A stretch of DNA of 64,000 bases from Minisyncoccota bacterium (GCA_041389105.1 JAWKSO010000002.1:18336-82335); one strand, 5' to 3'; positions 803-63,497 are shown, counted from the first letter of the stretch. Made by a program: numbers and translations. The notes: generated by a model not told the origin, from the letters alone.

Positions 803-1030
803 ATGAGTACTTTCAACAACTACTTAAGTGGACAAAAAGAAGCGGTCCGTATCGCTGATGAAGTTTTGGGCGGAGAAAAGGGTAAGCTCTTTACCAAGGC
901 CATCTTAGCAAGGTTCACGGATCTGAAAAAGGTCTCTGTTGAACAAGTTAGAGAGTTTCTAACTGTAGATTGGGCTGGTGCCATGGCAAAGCTCACCGAT
1001 GATAAAGCTGATCTACAGAAAGACTACTAA
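803..1030 (+). CDS. hypothetical protein (75 aa), GC-rich mini-cassette
   Basis: Intact ORF. One 60-nt line counted 31/60 GC against about 19/60 in the backbone. It has its own promoter and a GC-rich terminator. Confidence 0.6.
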   Translation: MSTFNNYLSGQKEAVRIADEVLGGEKGKLFTKAILARFTDLKKVSVEQVREFLTVDWAGAMAKLTDDKADLQKDY

Positions 1031-1044
1031 CTACTAGGCAAACA

Positions 1045-1075
1045 GGCCGCGCGCATACGCCGCGGTCTTTTGTCT
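1045..1075 (+). terminator. rho-independent terminator
   Basis: GGCCGCG...CGCGGTC stem followed by a T-run. Confidence 0.6.
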
Positions 1076-1096
1076 TTTCCAGATAAACAAGATAAA

Positions 1097-1129
1097 CAAA
1101 AAGTCGCGCACGAAGTGCTGACTTTTTGT
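1097..1129 (-). terminator. rho-independent terminator
   Basis: AAAAAGTC-GCAC-GAA-GTGC-GACTTTTT hairpin directly downstream of the minus gene ending at 1130. Confidence 0.6.
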
Positions 1130-1774
1130 TTATCTGTTAAAAACTAAAACATTTTTATCTTCAAGACCTTGGTCAATTTCGATATTCTCGATCTCATCCA
1201 TAATCTTAAAAGCTAGTTTGTGATAGTTGGGCGTAATACCCGGAGTTGCTGGTGGGTTATAAACCTCAAGGATTTTGGCAACTGATTTGTCTTTATAATA
1301 ATGTTCCGTATTAGGATTATTACCACTTAGGTTTTTTGCAATAATATCAAAAGATTCTTCAACAGAATCAAATCTTATCTTACAAGAACCCCATCCAAAC
1401 CAATTATTTACTCCTTTTGGGTTTTTACAAACGTGTTTACCACCTGTTGTCTCTAGTTTTGCTAGAGCGGGTAAAAGCCTCCAATCAATGCCGTATTTAT
1501 CAGCAGCTTTCACCATCGCTAATCCGTAACCGGAAGCAGGTAAATCCCACTGACCAAAATATGCATCAATCTTTGCGGCTTTTATTTTTTGTTCTTCTAA
1601 AAGAGCTGACTGCTCGTCTATTATTTCGGAAGCTCCGAAACCAGACCGTATTTTATCCTCTAAAGCTGAAAGATCGATCTTACTATCGACTCCTACAGAA
1701 ATGTTTGTTACCAATAAAGGCAAGAGGATAAAAGAATGCAATGAATTGCTGAAACTCTTATATATTTTATTCAT
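1130..1774 (-). CDS. secreted glucosaminidase/lysozyme-like peptidoglycan hydrolase candidate
   Basis: Has an N-terminal hydrophobic signal. ALAKLETTGGK...NNWFGWG resembles the ES...NNLFGIK motif of mannosyl-glycoprotein endo-beta-N-acetylglucosaminidase domains. Confidence 0.45.
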   Translation of the reverse strand: MNKIYKSFSNSLHSFILLPLLVTNISVGVDSKIDLSALEDKIRSGFGASEIIDEQSALLEEQKIKAAKIDAYFGQWDLPASGYGLAMVKAADKYGIDWRLLPALAKLETTGGKHVCKNPKGVNNWFGWGSCKIRFDSVEESFDIIAKNLSGNNPNTEHYYKDKSVAKILEVYNPPATPGITPNYHKLAFKIMDEIENIEIDQGLEDKNVLVFNR

Positions 1775-2190
1775 ATGTGACGGTTTCGCTCCGACAACAC
1801 CATGGTAGTATGTCCGTTGTAACCAATATACAAAGATACCTTTTGAAGATTTTTGTATTTAATTAGAACGGTTCTTGATGGGATTAACCCAAACAAAAAA
1901 GCCCCCGACGGGACTTACGTCCATATCTTAGCATGGGCTATTTTTTTTGTCAATACCTTAAATTTTTTGTCTGTCAAGCCCTAAAAATGGCTTTAAATAT
2001 AGGTTTTTTATGCTTTTATATTTTTCCAGCCTAAAGTTTTTTGTTTTGTTTTTGGCGATTTTTAGACCAAAATCCTTATTTTTTCGGGTATAAATTTTGA
2101 CAAAACACCAAAAAATGTTAATCTTTTTTCGTATTTGAACCTTTAAACGAACCCCTTCCGATTTCAATCGGGACCCAATAATAAGAACTT

Positions 2191-3273
2191 ATGGCACAAC
2201 GTGGAACCACAGGCGATAAAATGGTCCACCTTGGACCGTCTAAAGACATCATCCGGGTCATCTCCCAATCGGAACGAGGAGAAGATGTGGGGTATGAACA
2301 CCTCATACTCTTTATTCTCTCTGGCATCAAGCTGGTGAAAAATCTGAAGAAGGAGCAGTGCACTGACGCATACCCATTACTTCGACACTTCAATCATAAC
2401 ATTGGTAGAGGTGAAGAGAGGTACATGGAGGCTCGTGGAGACTGGGCGACATTCCTCATGGACTTCATCGATCTTGAGGATTTCGACGATGATTTCTCAG
2501 AAGATCAGTATGACGACTTCCTTGATGATGTTGACACCTACGCACGTGTTGGTGCTCAGAACAAGAAGAGGCTACGGGCGGGAAAGCTTCAGAAGATGAT
2601 CCTCGAGTTCCTGAGAAAAGATCGAACGCCAAAAAACAGGCTTGATGACCTACGTTTCTTGAAGTGTATCCTTTTTGGTGTCAAAAACAAGGATTGGTAC
2701 CACGACACCCCAAAGGTTTTCCGTAAGCTCTTACCCACCTACGGTATCAAGGACATCGATCTCTTCACCCAACTCTTTGCGATCACCAGCGCACATACCA
2801 ACTTCCAGGCAAATGTTGGGGCGGCGGCGCGAGTCTATCACATGTTCGAGCGGGGCCAAACCAAATTCAACGGTGAAGGCTTCCTACCTGCCATCGTGAA
2901 GATGCTCGAGGATTTCCGGGTTGGGAAAATGGACTTCGGTTCTGAACCACCACGAGACGGCAGGCGCAAGATTGTGAACTTTGGACGAGCACTCCTTGGT
3001 GACAAGGATGCTGTTGTCTGTGACATCTGGCTTCTGGAGGCTTTCTGGGTAGCCGAGTACTACAAATGGAAAGACAAGGTCAACTCGTACACTCCGCGTG
3101 TCTACGAGTATGACGCAGTTGAAGCCATGATACGTGAGATGGCACGGCAAACAAAGCTTGAGTCACGCCAGATAGTTTCGATGGCATGGGCTGGAGCGCG
3201 AATCCTTATGGGCAAGCATACAACACATGACACCGAACAGGTGGTGCGTCGAGCGCTTGAACCAAAGAAGTAG
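2191..3273 (+). CDS. hypothetical protein (360 aa), GC-rich orphan cassette
   Basis: Intact ORF at about 53% GC (32/60 in one line). Contains an acidic DEDFDDDFSEDQYDDFLDD stretch. I recognise no domain. A terminator follows. Confidence 0.6.
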   Translation: MAQRGTTGDKMVHLGPSKDIIRVISQSERGEDVGYEHLILFILSGIKLVKNLKKEQCTDAYPLLRHFNHNIGRGEERYMEARGDWATFLMDFIDLEDFDDDFSEDQYDDFLDDVDTYARVGAQNKKRLRAGKLQKMILEFLRKDRTPKNRLDDLRFLKCILFGVKNKDWYHDTPKVFRKLLPTYGIKDIDLFTQLFAITSAHTNFQANVGAAARVYHMFERGQTKFNGEGFLPAIVKMLEDFRVGKMDFGSEPPRDGRRKIVNFGRALLGDKDAVVCDIWLLEAFWVAEYYKWKDKVNSYTPRVYEYDAVEAMIREMARQTKLESRQIVSMAWAGARILMGKHTTHDTEQVVRRALEPKK

Positions 3274-3288
3274 AGTGGACCCTATCGA

Positions 3289-62070: not shown

Positions 62071-62208
62071 ATATTTAATGATACGGATTAACCTTGCTTT
62101 GTCAAACGGTTTAATATCTCTATTGTGTCTTTAAACTATTGCAAATACTCACTGTTTTATATACTCGCTCACCAGCTGATGCTCACTTAAAAACAAAAGC
62201 TCCTAGTT

Positions 62209-62433
62209 GGTTCGAACTTTTCTTAATATGTCCACACCCTAAAATATTAGTGCCTTTCGGCGCTTTTATTTTTGAGGGAGATGAGCAAAGCACCTGCGTG
62301 CTTTGCGTGCGCGGAATCGAAAACCGCAGCGTTATGCGAATTCTATGTTATCGCGAGGTGGGGTCGAGAGTACTTAGATTTTTCGAGCTTGTCGAAGAAA
62401 AAAGCGCCAGTAACTCGTGACCGATGATCCGAC
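62209..62433 (+). repeat. decayed ssrA 3'-end copy plus structured insert, copy C (family 1, chimeric)
   Basis: GGTTCGAA...TCCACA (62209-62236) is a degenerate tmRNA T-arm and 3' end. 62248-62339 is about 85% identical to 59712-59800 (copy B left half). 62352-62421 is about 80% identical to 27517-27584 (copy A right half). It ends GTGACCGATGATCCGAC. Confidence 0.6.
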
Positions 62434-62512
62434 ATTTATATATAAAATTAATTTAATTTTTACATCTCTTTTGCCTATAATAAAGACATTAGAAACTTTA
62501 ATTTTTAAATAT

Positions 62513-62736
62513 ATGAAATTTATTTATTATATTTTAATAGGTCCAGTAATTTTTAGTATTTTTTTTTTAATAATGCTTTTTTAGATGGTGAACATTTAGG
62601 CTTCACAATATTCCAACTAGGTCTTCCGGCTATAATTTCATACTTTATATCAAAGAAAAAAGATAATTTTCTTAAGATATTTTCATTATCCTTCTTTGTT
62701 ATATTTATCATTATATTTTTCATACAAAATATTTAA
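62513..62736 (+). CDS. small membrane protein (about 74 aa), one frameshift in a T-run
   Basis: MKFIYYILIGPVIFSIFFLIMLF / LDGEHLGFTIFQLGLPAIISYFISKKKDNFLKIFSLSFFVIFIIIFFIQNI. Confidence 0.3.
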
Positions 62737-63136
62737 AAATAAAGAGTTTTTTAAAAAATTCTCTGTGTTGTCCACAACAACATTTGCATGCCGTTTAATA
62801 TTTAAGATATTATGTATATAAGAAGTAACTATTTTTATGAGCTGTTTGGTCCACCATATTATTTTTATGTATGTTTGCTTAAACATAAAAAGGTGATTTC
62901 CTCAAAGTGCTTTTACTATTTGACATTATAACAAATAGATGTTTAATTTTTTTGAAAAGTAACTACAAAAAATGCCAAAAATACTCTTGTAGAATAAATT
63001 AGGTCTTTAGAAGAAAGTCCTCAAAAGTTTATATTTTTGAGGACTTTTTCTTTTTTTTTCTTTTTATTATTTTTATCTTTTAAAATTTCTTTTATTCTAT
63101 TAAACAATATGCTTTAATTAAAAAAATACCCAAACC

Positions 63137-63456
63137 ATGAGCACCGGAACAAGCACAGACATACAAGCAAGACTACATCACACACTCGAACCAGCCTCGT
63201 TCTTTGTAGAACTCAATACAAGTCTACAGGAAGACCATCAAATCTCTTCTTAATAACCACGCCACCAGCAAAGGTGTTGTGGTTTTAAAGATGGATTTAC
63301 CATTGAGATCAAGGATGGCTTCATAGAGAGAAGCAAGCATAACCATATCCGATCACCGGCTTTAAGACCAAGTGTGTGGAACAATTCTCTCCACCTAGAA
63401 AATCCGTGAAGAAAATACGGACATCTAAGGGAGAAATCCTGAATATAGAGGATTAG
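63137..63456 (+). pseudogene. GC-richer cassette gene, frameshifted
   Basis: MSTGTSTDIQARLHHTLEPASFFVELNTSLQEDHQISS then continues in other frames. About 45% GC, with a terminator following. Confidence 0.4.
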
Positions 63457-63465
63457 TATCCTTCC

Positions 63466-63497
63466 CCAGCGGACCGAAAGGTTCGCTGGTATTTTTT
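63466..63497 (+). terminator. rho-independent terminator
   Basis: CCAGCGGACC-GAAA-GGTTCGCTGG followed by TATTTTTT. Confidence 0.75.

What the first reader, a model, noticed from the sequence alone, without database searches (positions are those of the whole stretch)
803..63497. At least nine GC-rich single-gene cassettes with their own promoter and terminator embedded in an AT-rich backbone
The cassettes, with my hand counts over single 60-nt lines, are listed here. 803-1075 (52% GC). 2191-3330 (53%). 16957-17668 (37-45%). 25225-25761 (48%). 44491-44851 (52%). 48074-49550 (57%). 52674-52940 (45%). 56489-56727 (45%). 63137-63497 (45%). The backbone line counted about 32%. Each cassette is a solitary ORF of unknown function (one is an HD hydrolase) ending in an unusually GC-rich perfect hairpin. 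Two have near-consensus promoters (747-774 and 48074-48102). Several abut tRNA genes (Gln-like, Thr, Ile, and the interval between the two Ser tRNAs). Three share the start context CCAAA(C/G)CCATGA; specifically, 794-808 and 63128-63142 share CCAAACCATGAG, and 16945-16960 has CCCAAAGCCATGA. This is the phage moron pattern: independent, compositionally foreign transcription units.
Basis: partly seen in the sequence, partly recalled or inferred. Interest (0 to 1): 0.65.

Follow-up and report, generated by a model that had tools for sequence, protein, structure and literature searches.

The report
Swappable GC-rich single-gene cassettes
The window is chromosome from an ultra-small Patescibacteria bacterium, not a phage, and its GC-rich stretches are self-contained single-gene units that related bacteria swap at fixed slots, often beside tRNA genes; this kind of gene traffic is known, but one cassette family carries a regulatory RNA leader that is not in Rfam.

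Summary
The backbone is a Candidatus Paceibacterota chromosome (SecA, FtsH, RecG, RNase J, PyrG, type IV pilus genes, SmpB/tmRNA), not a phage. The assembly is error-prone: gatA, ligA and secA are frame-broken. Only two segments are strong GC outliers in windowed statistics: 2191-3330 and 48074-49550, both about 50% GC against 36.6% overall. At codon level, eight of the nine cassettes exceed the GC3 of all 43 ordinary genes. Island A (DUF7178 gene) lies next to secA in relatives too, but it is 92% identical in protein (88% at third positions) to a distant relative whose SecA is 80% identical (47%). The 90-98% identity tract spans the ORF and terminator, so this is a recent gene-sized exchange. 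Island B belongs to a Patescibacteria-wide ~450-aa family with a C-type-lectin fold. That family is GC-richer than its host in 56 of 58 genomes, sits in unrelated neighbourhoods even at 80-91% nucleotide identity, is enriched beside tRNAs, and has a covarying Shine-Dalgarno-sequestering leader absent from Rfam. Cassettes 3, 4, 5, 7 and 9 are absent or replaced by unrelated ORFs in close relatives; cassette 8 is conserved. The "foreign, autonomous units" reading is largely right. The "phage moron" reading is wrong.

The parts
747..1075 (+). Cassette 1: promoter 747-774, ORF 803-1030 (75 aa, no known family), terminator hairpin about 1036-1075
   Evidence: Promoter matches 11 of 12 positions with a TG extension. 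The hairpin folds at -23.5 kcal/mol and GC3 is 0.434. The slot after dnaE in L002 holds a 71-aa ORF with only marginal similarity (z=2.1), and the DNA there is unalignable.
2097..3325 (+). Island A: -35-like TTGACA at 2097-2102, leader hairpin about 2157-2180, DUF7178 ORF 2191-3273 (360 aa), terminator 3288-3320
   Evidence: GC is 50% (z=3.5) and GC3 is 0.571. Pfam DUF7178 matches at E=3e-8. The gene lies next to secA in L001-L004. Identity to L002 is 90-98% exactly over 2206-3305, against 60-80% in the flanks. The gene tree conflicts with that of SecA. Promoter, leader and terminator are conserved with L002, and the leader hairpin is kept through compensatory changes.
16957..17665 (+). Cassette 3: HD-type phosphohydrolase-like gene (about 224 aa), split over three frames in the window; terminator 17630-17662; a tRNA-like gene follows at 17700-17770
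   Evidence: phrog_16069 phosphohydrolase matches at E=9e-10 and Pfam PDEase_I weakly at E=0.008. The hairpin folds at -29.1 kcal/mol. No homolog was found in 11 FtsX-anchored related loci, although the closest of these do not keep the surrounding 16.4-18.9 kb segment either.
25231..25761 (-). Cassette 4: ORF 25276-25761 (161 aa, no known family), terminator 25258-25231; lies between tRNA-Thr (25820-25893) and prfB
   Evidence: The terminator has 12 pairs, 7 of them G-C. GC3 is 0.475. Relatives L079, L080 and L083 hold a 164-167-aa ORF in the same slot. Those ORFs are homologous to each other (z=25-33) but unrelated to this one (z=0.3-1.7).
44490..44851 (-). Cassette 5: ORF of about 106 aa (44530-44851; intact in the sister assembly, split in the window) with a terminator at about 44496-44524
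   Evidence: The sister gene is L075 2265-2585. GC3 is 0.458 and the hairpin folds at -21.1 kcal/mol. The equivalent slot in L076 holds an unrelated 90-aa ORF that is GC-richer than its own backbone.
48074..49540 (+). Island B: promoter 48074-48102, degraded leader 48103-48177, frame-disrupted copy of a ~450-aa C-type-lectin-fold family 48178-49510, terminator 49517-49540; flanked by tRNA-Ser genes at 47444-47530 and 49566-49655 (both minus strand)
   Evidence: GC is 49.6% (z=3.7). At least 10 frame changes and at least 4 in-frame stops. The reconstructed protein matches 122 full-length Patescibacteria proteins. The sister copy is far more intact, but one TGA stop is shared. The AlphaFold2 model has pLDDT 92 and matches PDB 5IOO (AvpA) at E=8e-9. 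In L076 the same two tRNA-Ser genes flank a Na/Ca-exchanger gene instead.
52675..52933 (+). Cassette 7: short ORF 52675-52853 in the window (106 aa in the sister assembly) and hairpin 52920-52933, lying between the response-regulator gene and recG
   Evidence: Window 52723-53429 has no counterpart in the sister assembly. In L076, L077 and L078 the response-regulator gene is followed directly by recG.
56488..56772 (-). Cassette 8: promoter 56772-56745, ORF 56704-56537 (55 aa, motif GRMYSSALFP), terminator hairpin 56488-56520; beside tRNA-Ile (56359-56433)
   Evidence: Promoter matches 11 of 12 positions and the hairpin has 15 pairs, 11 of them G-C. It is homologous to small ORFs in the same position in L078 and L076 (z=4.8 and 6.3) and absent from L077. 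It shares the terminator stem GCCCCGGCGC with island A.
63137..63489 (+). Cassette 9: ORF of about 105 aa, frame-broken in the window, terminator 63466-63489; forms the right end of a window-specific segment (59871-63491) next to the tmRNA gene
   Evidence: The terminator has 10 pairs, 7 of them G-C. Alignment with the sister assembly resumes at 63491. Frames are shown. A direct repeat of about 105 bp lies at 59700-59805 and 62235-62345.

Best explanation
The window is chromosomal DNA of a Candidatus Paceibacterota (Patescibacteria/CPR) bacterium, from an assembly with many consensus errors. Most of the GC-rich units are members of this phylum's flexible gene pool. Each is a single gene with its own promoter, leader and terminator, occupying a fixed intergenic slot between conserved housekeeping genes, often beside a tRNA or the tmRNA gene. 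Related lineages exchange or replace these genes.

Shown: island A was replaced recently, as a complete transcription unit, by an allele from a distant higher-GC relative or from a common third donor. Family B changes genomic neighbourhood quickly relative to its own sequence divergence. Several small slots hold unrelated ORFs in close relatives.

Inferred: the route is DNA uptake through the competence-type pilus, followed by recombination anchored in the conserved flanks (tRNA genes, secA, prfB). No integrase or transposase accompanies the cassettes. The GC excess comes partly from donor composition (island A). For family B it must also reflect a gene-intrinsic force that persists across hosts. 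I favour GC-biased repair linked to frequent recombination, or selection on the mRNA. Ordinary translational codon bias is unlikely.
For: Backbone identity: Pfam hits to SecA, FtsH, RecG, RNase J, BipA, PyrG, FtsX, PilM and PilC; tmRNA and eight tRNAs; the sister contig is named Candidatus Paceibacterota.

Island A: SecA places L003 as the close relative (91.8% aa, third-position identity 61%) and L002 as the distant one (80.3%, 47%). DUF7178 shows the reverse: 92.2% aa and 88% third-position identity to L002, but 65.9% and 42% to L003. The 90-98% identity tract spans 2206-3305, and the promoter, leader and terminator are conserved with L002. The L002 backbone is 45.6% GC.

Family B: 64 loci were recovered. 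Pairs share 80-91% nucleotide identity over the gene but nothing alignable in up to 8 kb of flanks, in DNA or protein. For L056 versus L059, homology begins at the -10 box, third-position identity is 83%, and the hosts are 52% and 45.5% GC. A tRNA lies within 350 nt in 12 of 61 loci against 2.8 expected (hand-tallied estimate, P about 3e-5).

Slots: cassette 4 is unrelated to its slot-mates (z=0.3-1.7) although those are homologous to each other (z=25-33). Cassette 5 is unrelated to its slot-mate. Cassette 7 is absent from three relatives. Cassette 9 lies in a segment missing from the sister strain. Cassette 3 has no homolog in 11 related loci. The interval between the two tRNA-Ser genes holds different genes in L076.

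Literature: individual gene transfers, mostly between Patescibacteria and probably through competence pili, are documented (PMC12455944).
Against: No recombinase, transposase, terminal inverted repeats or att-like repeats flank cassettes 1-8, so the mechanism is inferred. Seven of the nine segments are not significant GC outliers in windowed statistics. Their high GC3 is partly a selection effect. Cassette 8 is a conserved, syntenic small protein. Family B remains GC-richer even in hosts above 50% GC (+4.2 points) and its GC tracks host GC (r=0.79), so simple foreignness does not explain its composition. Vertical inheritance of family B with very rapid genome rearrangement cannot be fully excluded, because no housekeeping genes were compared between the carrier genomes. 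The window and its sister assembly both contain many consensus errors. Slot-mates scored as unrelated could in principle be orthologs that diverged beyond recognition.
Confidence: 0.65

Rival explanations
1. Phage morons: the window is a phage or prophage, and the cassettes are extra genes inserted between phage genes.
For: The architecture (own promoter, single ORF, strong terminator, deviant composition) matches the moron description. There are weak PHROG hits: phrog_3842 for DUF7178 at E=7e-7 and phrog_16069 for cassette 3 at E=9e-10. DUF7178 also occurs inside very large multidomain proteins.
Against: The backbone consists of essential cellular genes (secA, ftsH, recG, pyrG, gatA, ligA, prfB, smpB/tmRNA) in an order conserved across relatives. 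There is no capsid, terminase, tail or integrase gene. tblastn finds no match in 50,697 phage records. The viral structure library gives no significant match for family B.
Confidence: 0.03
2. Native, vertically inherited genes whose GC richness reflects selection for very high expression (codon bias, stable mRNA). On this view there is no horizontal movement, and the different contexts merely reflect genome shuffling.
For: There are near-consensus promoters, 5' hairpins, strong Shine-Dalgarno sequences in family B, and strong terminators. The GC excess of family B is nearly universal and tracks host GC. The excess is GC3 > GC1 > GC2 (+12, +6.6, +3.7 points).
Against: Ribosomal-protein and translation-factor genes in close relatives do not have raised GC3 (0.25-0.27 against 0.27-0.31 for other genes). 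Island A conflicts with SecA phylogeny and has sharp tract edges. Family B copies that are 84-90% identical in protein share no flanking genes, whereas this lineage keeps gene order at 77-85% RecG identity.
Confidence: 0.12
3. The cause of the GC excess is GC-biased gene conversion. Loci that recombine often between strains drift toward G and C at weakly selected sites, so frequently exchanged cassettes stay GC-rich in every host. This explains the composition and is compatible with the best explanation for mobility.
For: The excess is largest at synonymous positions. It points the same way in 56 of 58 hosts, including GC-rich ones. It coincides with demonstrably exchanged loci and is absent from ribosomal-protein genes.
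Against: No recombination rates or AT-to-GC substitution spectra were measured. GC-biased conversion in Patescibacteria is assumed from work on other bacteria (my own knowledge, not checked here). A GC-rich extrachromosomal reservoir would give the same pattern.
Confidence: 0.25
4. Assembly artefact: GC-rich reads from other organisms were mis-joined into an AT-rich metagenome-assembled genome.
For: The assembly is visibly error-prone, and island B is an error hotspot with about 100 differences from the sister assembly in 1.7 kb.
Against: Islands A and B and cassettes 1, 5 and 8 are at the same positions in an independent assembly (L001, L075). Island A is also next to secA in L002, L003 and L004 from other samples. 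Family B is embedded in long contigs in dozens of genomes.
Confidence: 0.03

Closest known systems
Phage morons
   Same: A single ORF with its own promoter and factor-independent terminator, nucleotide composition unlike its surroundings, and presence in some relatives but not others at the same position.
   Different: The surrounding genome here is a bacterial chromosome, not a phage. There are no phage homologs. The slots lie between housekeeping genes and tRNAs.
Individually transferred genes and genomic islands in Patescibacteria (PMC12455944)
   Same: Gene exchange occurs mainly among Patescibacteria and is attributed to competence pili. Deviant composition is the signal of transfer.
   Different: Here the unit is resolved to one transcription unit with mapped tract edges (island A). 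Replacement recurs at fixed slots, and no island machinery is present. That paper reports no tRNA association (0 mentions of 'tRNA' in its main text).
tRNA- and tmRNA-associated integrative islands
   Same: Cassettes abut tRNA-Thr, tRNA-Ile, tRNA-Ser and a tRNA-like gene. A strain-specific segment with a direct repeat of about 105 bp follows the tmRNA gene. Relative L078 has a serine recombinase island at the same place.
   Different: No integrase accompanies cassettes 1-8. No duplicated tRNA 3' ends flank them. Each insert is a single gene.
DGR variable proteins with the C-type lectin fold (AvpA of Nanoarchaeota, PDB 5IOO; PMC5006420)
   Same: The family B model matches 5IOO_A (Foldseek E=8e-9, TM-score 0.73 normalised to the target). 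There is also a weak profile hit to AvpA (E=0.17).
   Different: There is no template/variable repeat pair in the window or in 60 loci. No reverse transcriptase appeared in the contexts examined. The protein is about 200 residues longer and is conserved along its whole length.
Shine-Dalgarno-sequestering leaders (translational riboswitches, RNA thermometers, protein-binding operators)
   Same: The family B leader has a covarying 3-5-bp hairpin flanked by an anti-SD:SD helix and an A-rich internal loop, immediately upstream of the start codon.
   Different: It matches no Rfam 15 family. No ligand or binding partner is known. It is only about 35 nt long and is restricted to one gene family.

Membership tests
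Phage moron | Lies within a phage or prophage genome between conserved phage genes | tested here: not met
   All flanking genes are cellular housekeeping genes. No phage structural or integration genes were seen.
Phage moron | Autonomous transcription unit with its own promoter and terminator | tested here: met
   Promoters matching 11 of 12 positions sit upstream of cassettes 1, 6 and 8. GC-rich hairpins followed by T-runs end all nine. These are consensus matches only; there is no expression data.
Phage moron | Composition differs from neighbours, and presence varies among relatives | tested here: met
   Two strong GC islands and raised GC3. Cassettes 3, 4, 5, 7 and 9 are absent or replaced in relatives.
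Integrative genomic island | Integrase or recombinase gene within the element | tested here: not met
   Each cassette is a single ORF with no recombinase domain. Only relative L078 has a serine recombinase, next to smpB/tmRNA.
Integrative genomic island | Insertion next to a tRNA or tmRNA gene with flanking direct repeats | tested here: inconclusive
   tRNA adjacency is met for cassettes 3, 4, 6 and 8 and is enriched family-wide for B. Direct repeats were found only beside the tmRNA gene, not around the cassettes.
DGR variable (target) protein | C-type lectin fold | tested here: met
   The AlphaFold2 model has pLDDT 92.4 and matches 5IOO_A at E=8e-9 with probability 1.00.
DGR variable (target) protein | Variable repeat at the 3' end of the gene, paired with a nearby template repeat and a reverse transcriptase | tested here: not met
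   No gene-versus-flank repeat in 60 loci or in the window. No RT domain among the called neighbours.
Pfam DUF7178 | Match to PF23802 above the gathering score | tested here: met
   34.3 bits against a cut-off of 27, E=3e-8, residues 167-334. The profile search finds 395 related cluster representatives.
Integron gene cassette | Promoterless ORF followed by an attC recombination site, arranged in an array next to intI | tested here: not met
   The cassettes carry their own promoters and are scattered singly. No integrase is present. attC structure was not searched for specifically.
Riboswitch or cis-regulatory leader (family B leader) | Conserved secondary structure supported by covariation, at a fixed position upstream of one gene family | tested here: met
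   The covariance model hits directly upstream of the gene in about 56 loci and essentially nowhere else in 659 kb. In the inner hairpin, 95.6% of cells are paired, all 4 pairs show changes on both sides, and 0 of 500 shuffles reach the observed score. For the outer helix, 7 of 5000 permutations reach the observed energy.
Riboswitch or cis-regulatory leader (family B leader) | Defined ligand or trans-acting factor, and a regulatory response | not testable with these tools
   This needs in-line probing, reporter assays or binding assays.

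The most novel reading that the evidence does not exclude
Family B is a self-contained, phylum-wide mobile expression cassette. The unit runs from the -10 box to the stop codon and encodes an AvpA-like C-type-lectin-fold protein behind a previously undescribed Shine-Dalgarno-sequestering RNA leader. 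It moves between Patescibacteria genomes without any recombinase of its own, lands preferentially beside tRNA genes, and keeps a GC content 4-10 points above whatever host carries it. The leader would be a new regulatory RNA class, and the cassette a cellular counterpart of the phage moron.
Probability: 0.3. Interest if true: 0.65.

Novelty: new member of a known kind. Interest (0 to 1): 0.42.

Why it matters
Patescibacteria have tiny genomes and depend on other cells. How they gain new functions is an open question, and documented transfers are mostly inferred statistically. This window gives a resolved example: a mapped 1.1-kb replacement tract covering one complete transcription unit, plus a set of fixed slots whose contents differ among close relatives. 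It also brings to light an uncharacterised, widely distributed lectin-fold protein family with a covarying leader RNA and an unexplained, host-independent GC excess. Both could be tested experimentally in the few cultivable Patescibacteria. For annotation, it warns against two mistakes: calling a locus a phage from moron-like architecture alone, and reading frame-broken genes in long-read metagenome-assembled genomes as pseudogenes.

Tried and rejected
1. rRNA or a large non-coding RNA as the explanation for island B: there is no Rfam hit, and three-frame translation shows a protein gene.

2. An alternative genetic code: backbone ORFs are long under table 11. The first TGA in island B is CGA in the sister assembly.

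3. Island B as a firmly established pseudogene: differences from the sister assembly cluster there (about 100 in 1.7 kb) and the frameshifts are mostly not shared. Essential gatA and ligA are equally broken. However, one TGA is shared, so real decay is not excluded.

4. Family B as a DGR target: there are no template/variable repeats.

5. The family B leader as a regulatory signal shared by all cassettes: the covariance model hits only family B.

6. Expression-linked codon bias: ribosomal-protein genes show no rise in GC3.

7. Structure-based function for DUF7178: the model has pLDDT 43 and was not searched. PDB sequence searches found nothing.

8. Anti-phage defence function: no PADLOC hits.

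9. Known RNA in 17600-18100: only a chance-level hit.

10. Literature on DUF7178: no papers found.

Full report
WHAT THE WINDOW IS. The 64-kb window averages 36.6% GC. It encodes SecA, FtsH, RecG, RNase J, BipA, CTP synthase, FtsX, a release factor, PilM and PilC-type pilus proteins, an oligopeptide-binding protein and SmpB. It also carries a tmRNA and eight tRNA genes. A near-identical contig in NCBI (GCA_041389125.1, 381 kb) is named Candidatus Paceibacterota. This is a Patescibacteria (CPR) chromosome, not a phage. The window and the NCBI contig differ by dozens of clustered indels. In the window, secA is split by a 1-nt indel, and gatA, gatC and ligA (28.2-32.8 kb) are broken over many frames. 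The assembly therefore contains patches of consensus error, and frame-broken genes in it cannot be read as pseudogenes without further evidence.

THE OBSERVATION. Against all same-length windows, only 2191-3330 (50.1% GC, z=3.5) and 48074-49550 (49.6%, z=3.7) are clear compositional islands. The other seven segments (42-47% GC) fall at the 84th-95th percentile, and many ordinary genes contain equally GC-rich stretches. Forty-three ordinary genes have GC3 of 0.302 +/- 0.044 (maximum 0.39). The cassette ORFs have 0.43-0.57, apart from the truncated cassette 9 fragment at 0.36. These ORFs were chosen for their GC, so this is partly circular, and the cassette 8 value was computed in what later proved to be the wrong frame. 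GC-rich terminator hairpins close all nine units. Promoters matching 11 of 12 positions precede cassettes 1, 6 and 8. However, promoter-like matches overall are no more frequent than in shuffled sequence, and ordinary genes also carry strong terminators. Cassettes 3, 5, 6 and 9 are not intact ORFs in the window. The true cassette 8 ORF is a 55-aa protein in a different frame from the mechanical ORF call. The tRNA neighbours are real. The 12-mer CCAAACCATGAG occurs exactly twice, at the starts of cassettes 1 and 9.

ISLAND A (2097-3325). The ORF matches Pfam DUF7178. It has only five word-index homologs among 5.8 billion proteins. A profile search finds 395 cluster representatives among 1.84 billion, some embedded in proteins of 900-3,400 aa alongside methyltransferase and DUF3293 domains. 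The gene lies next to secA in the sister genome and in two other lineages, L002 and L003/L004. SecA is 91.8% identical (third positions 61%) between the window lineage and L003, and 80.3% (47%, saturated) to L002. DUF7178 is 92.2% identical (third positions 88%) to L002 and only 65.9% (42%) to L003. Sliding identity to L002 is 60-80% across dnaE, the glucosaminidase gene and secA. It jumps to 90-98% exactly over 2206-3305. The promoter, a leader hairpin kept through compensatory changes, and the terminator are also conserved with L002. The L002 backbone is 45.6% GC and its copy of the gene is 51%. This is a recent, gene-sized replacement of a complete transcription unit, from a higher-GC relative or from a common donor.

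ISLAND B (48074-49540). The region changes reading frame at least ten times and has at least four in-frame stops. A stitched translation nevertheless aligns end to end with 122 proteins of about 450 aa, none with a Pfam domain, from Paceibacterota, Parcubacteria, Levybacteria, Falkowbacteria and other groups. The sister assembly reads residues 1-193 in one frame (65% identical to P0006) and has about two frameshifts overall. Differences between the two assemblies are concentrated here. One TGA is shared by both. The damage in the window is therefore mostly artefact, though some real decay cannot be excluded. An AlphaFold2 model of the family (pLDDT 92.4) has one significant PDB match: AvpA, the C-type-lectin-fold variable protein of a Nanoarchaeota diversity-generating retroelement (E=8e-9). 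There is no significant match in the viral structure library. No template/variable repeat exists in the window or in 60 loci, so the family is not a DGR target.

FAMILY B ACROSS GENOMES. Sixty-four loci were recovered from species-representative genomes. The gene is GC-richer than its flanks in 56 of 58 loci, with means of 51.6% and 43.3% (Wilcoxon P=2e-10). The regression has slope 0.76 and r=0.79. The excess is still +4.2 points in hosts above 50% GC. By codon position the excess is +12 points at GC3, +6.6 at GC1 and +3.7 at GC2. Many pairs of loci share 80-91% nucleotide identity over the whole gene, yet have nothing alignable, in DNA or protein, across up to 8 kb of flanks. For L056 versus L059, homology starts at the -10 box and stops a few codons before the stop codon. 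Third-position identity is 83%, and the hosts differ by 7 GC points. By contrast, the window lineage keeps the order response regulator-RecG-FtsH-SmpB at only 77-85% RecG identity. A tRNA gene of varying identity lies within 350 nt in 12 of 61 loci, against 2.8 expected; this is a hand-tallied estimate. In L076 the same two tRNA-Ser genes that bracket island B flank a Na/Ca exchanger instead. The family therefore behaves as a mobile single-gene unit.

THE FAMILY B LEADER. Nearly every locus has the same layout: promoter, one or two hairpins, then YCCUAAAAC, a 3-5-bp hairpin, AAAGGAG, 5-9 nt and AUG. A covariance model built on 14 leaders hits directly upstream of the gene in about 56 loci and essentially nowhere else in 659 kb. 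It does not hit upstream of any other cassette in the window. In the inner hairpin, 95.6% of cells are paired, all four pairs show changes on both sides, and 0 of 500 shuffles reach the observed covariation. That alignment was fitted to the model, which favours the structure. An outer helix pairs an upstream anti-SD with the Shine-Dalgarno sequence and appears to co-vary (for example CACC/GGUG, AACCU/AGGUU, AUUCC/GGAAU). Own-partner duplexes are more stable than swapped ones, and 7 of 5000 permutations reach the observed value, without correction for phylogeny. Rfam 15 has no match. I read this as a candidate translational control element whose effector is unknown.

THE SMALL CASSETTES. I compared relatives anchored on RecG (L078 at 85%, L076 at 80%, L077 at 77%) and on FtsX (L079, L080 and L083, with PyrG 88-95% identical). 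Cassette 7 is absent from all three RecG relatives and differs even from the sister strain. Cassette 9 lies in a window-specific, AT-rich segment beside the tmRNA gene. Cassette 3 has no homolog in any of the 11 FtsX-anchored loci, although the closest of them do not keep the surrounding segment either. The cassette 4 slot, between tRNA-Thr and prfB, holds a 164-167-aa ORF in the relatives. Those ORFs are homologous to each other (z=25-33) but unrelated to the window's cassette 4 (z=0.3-1.7). The cassette 5 slot-mate in L076 is unrelated. Cassette 1 against its L002 slot-mate is marginal (z=2.1). Cassette 8 is a genuinely conserved small protein (z=4.8-6.3). None has a significant Pfam or PADLOC assignment, apart from weak HD/PDEase-type signals for cassette 3.

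WHY GC-RICH? Ordinary translational selection is unlikely. In close relatives, ribosomal-protein and translation-factor genes have GC3 of 0.25-0.27, against 0.27-0.31 for other genes. Donor composition explains part of island A. For family B the excess is host-independent, so a persistent force is needed. Candidates are GC-biased conversion at frequently recombining loci, selection on mRNA structure or stability, or a GC-rich extrachromosomal reservoir. None of these was tested here.

COMPARISON WITH WHAT IS KNOWN, AND VERDICT. Transfers of individual genes, mostly between Patescibacteria and probably through competence pili, are documented (PMC12455944). The general phenomenon is therefore known. 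The architecture resembles phage morons, but the membership test fails on the defining context: the cassettes are not in a phage. The specific additions here are a mapped single-unit replacement, recurrent slot replacement next to tRNA genes without any recombinase, and the family B cassette with its leader RNA and persistent GC excess. Interest is moderate.

Noticed in passing
window 28217-32822 (minus strand); also 3775: gatA, gatC and NAD-dependent ligA are split over many reading frames, and secA is split by a 1-nt indel relative to the sister assembly. These are clusters of consensus error in a long-read-type assembly, not pseudogenes.
   Followed up: partly
window 47444-47530 (minus strand); L075 5184-5271; L076 2647-2734: A tRNA-Ser with anticodon ACU (A at position 34) is conserved in three related genomes, next to a normal tRNA-Ser(GCU). 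Rfam's tRNA model did not report it at the gathering threshold. A34 is unusual outside tRNA-Arg(ACG).
   Followed up: partly
window 17700-17990: ARAGORN calls a tRNA-like gene at 17700-17770 with an undetermined anticodon (by eye, Gln CUG). It is followed by about 220 nt of 45-48% GC non-coding sequence containing a GAGGAAAG motif. A permissive Rfam search found no credible hit.
   Followed up: partly
window 59700-63491: Directly after the tmRNA gene there is a direct repeat of about 105 bp (59700-59805 and 62235-62345, about 88% identical). A 3.6-kb segment of 22-30% GC is absent from the sister strain and has no convincing ORFs. It looks like a decayed or unusual insertion at the tmRNA locus. 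Relative L078 has a serine recombinase island at the same place.
   Followed up: partly
window 26667-26730 and 26840-26903: A 64-nt direct repeat comprises a terminator-like hairpin plus TGTATTTGCGCGAACGACGGGA, which overlaps the 3' end of tRNA-Asp. It suggests a duplicated or remnant tRNA end upstream of the tRNA cluster.
   Followed up: no
window 24420-25241 (minus strand): The release-factor ORF (PCRF and RF-1 domains) is only 273 aa. Its PCRF match starts at profile position 85, and the cassette 4 terminator overlaps its nominal start. The gene is either N-terminally short, or uses a frameshift, or has a different start.
   Followed up: no
window 3293-3315 and 56493-56515; also L002 and L003 terminators: The terminator stem GCCCCGGCGC...GCGCCGGGGC recurs at island A, at cassette 8 and at cassette terminators in relatives: 5 hits with at most 1 mismatch against 0.36 expected. 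It may be a shared terminator module of the cassette pool.
   Followed up: partly
L070 4001-5245 (Mesorhizobium sp. SP-1A, isolate genome): A 31%-identical family B homolog lies in a region of about 47% GC in a genome labelled Mesorhizobium. The genus is normally above 60% GC (from my own knowledge, not checked here). Several other loci are labelled Gammaproteobacteria, Cyanobacteria or Obscuribacterales. These point to transfer outside Patescibacteria or to mis-binning.
   Followed up: no
window 5995-6114: Five overlapping copies of a 45-nt unit with 15-nt periodicity (T/C-rich on the plus strand) lie in the very AT-rich gap upstream of secA. This may be a short repetitive peptide-coding or structural repeat.
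   Followed up: no
L077 15580-16113 and 16976-17341; L076 16421-16849: Close relatives also carry small ORFs with GC3 of 0.46-0.48 against backbones of about 0.27-0.31 (two hypotheticals and an Nfu-domain gene), so the cassette pattern recurs across the lineage.
   Followed up: no
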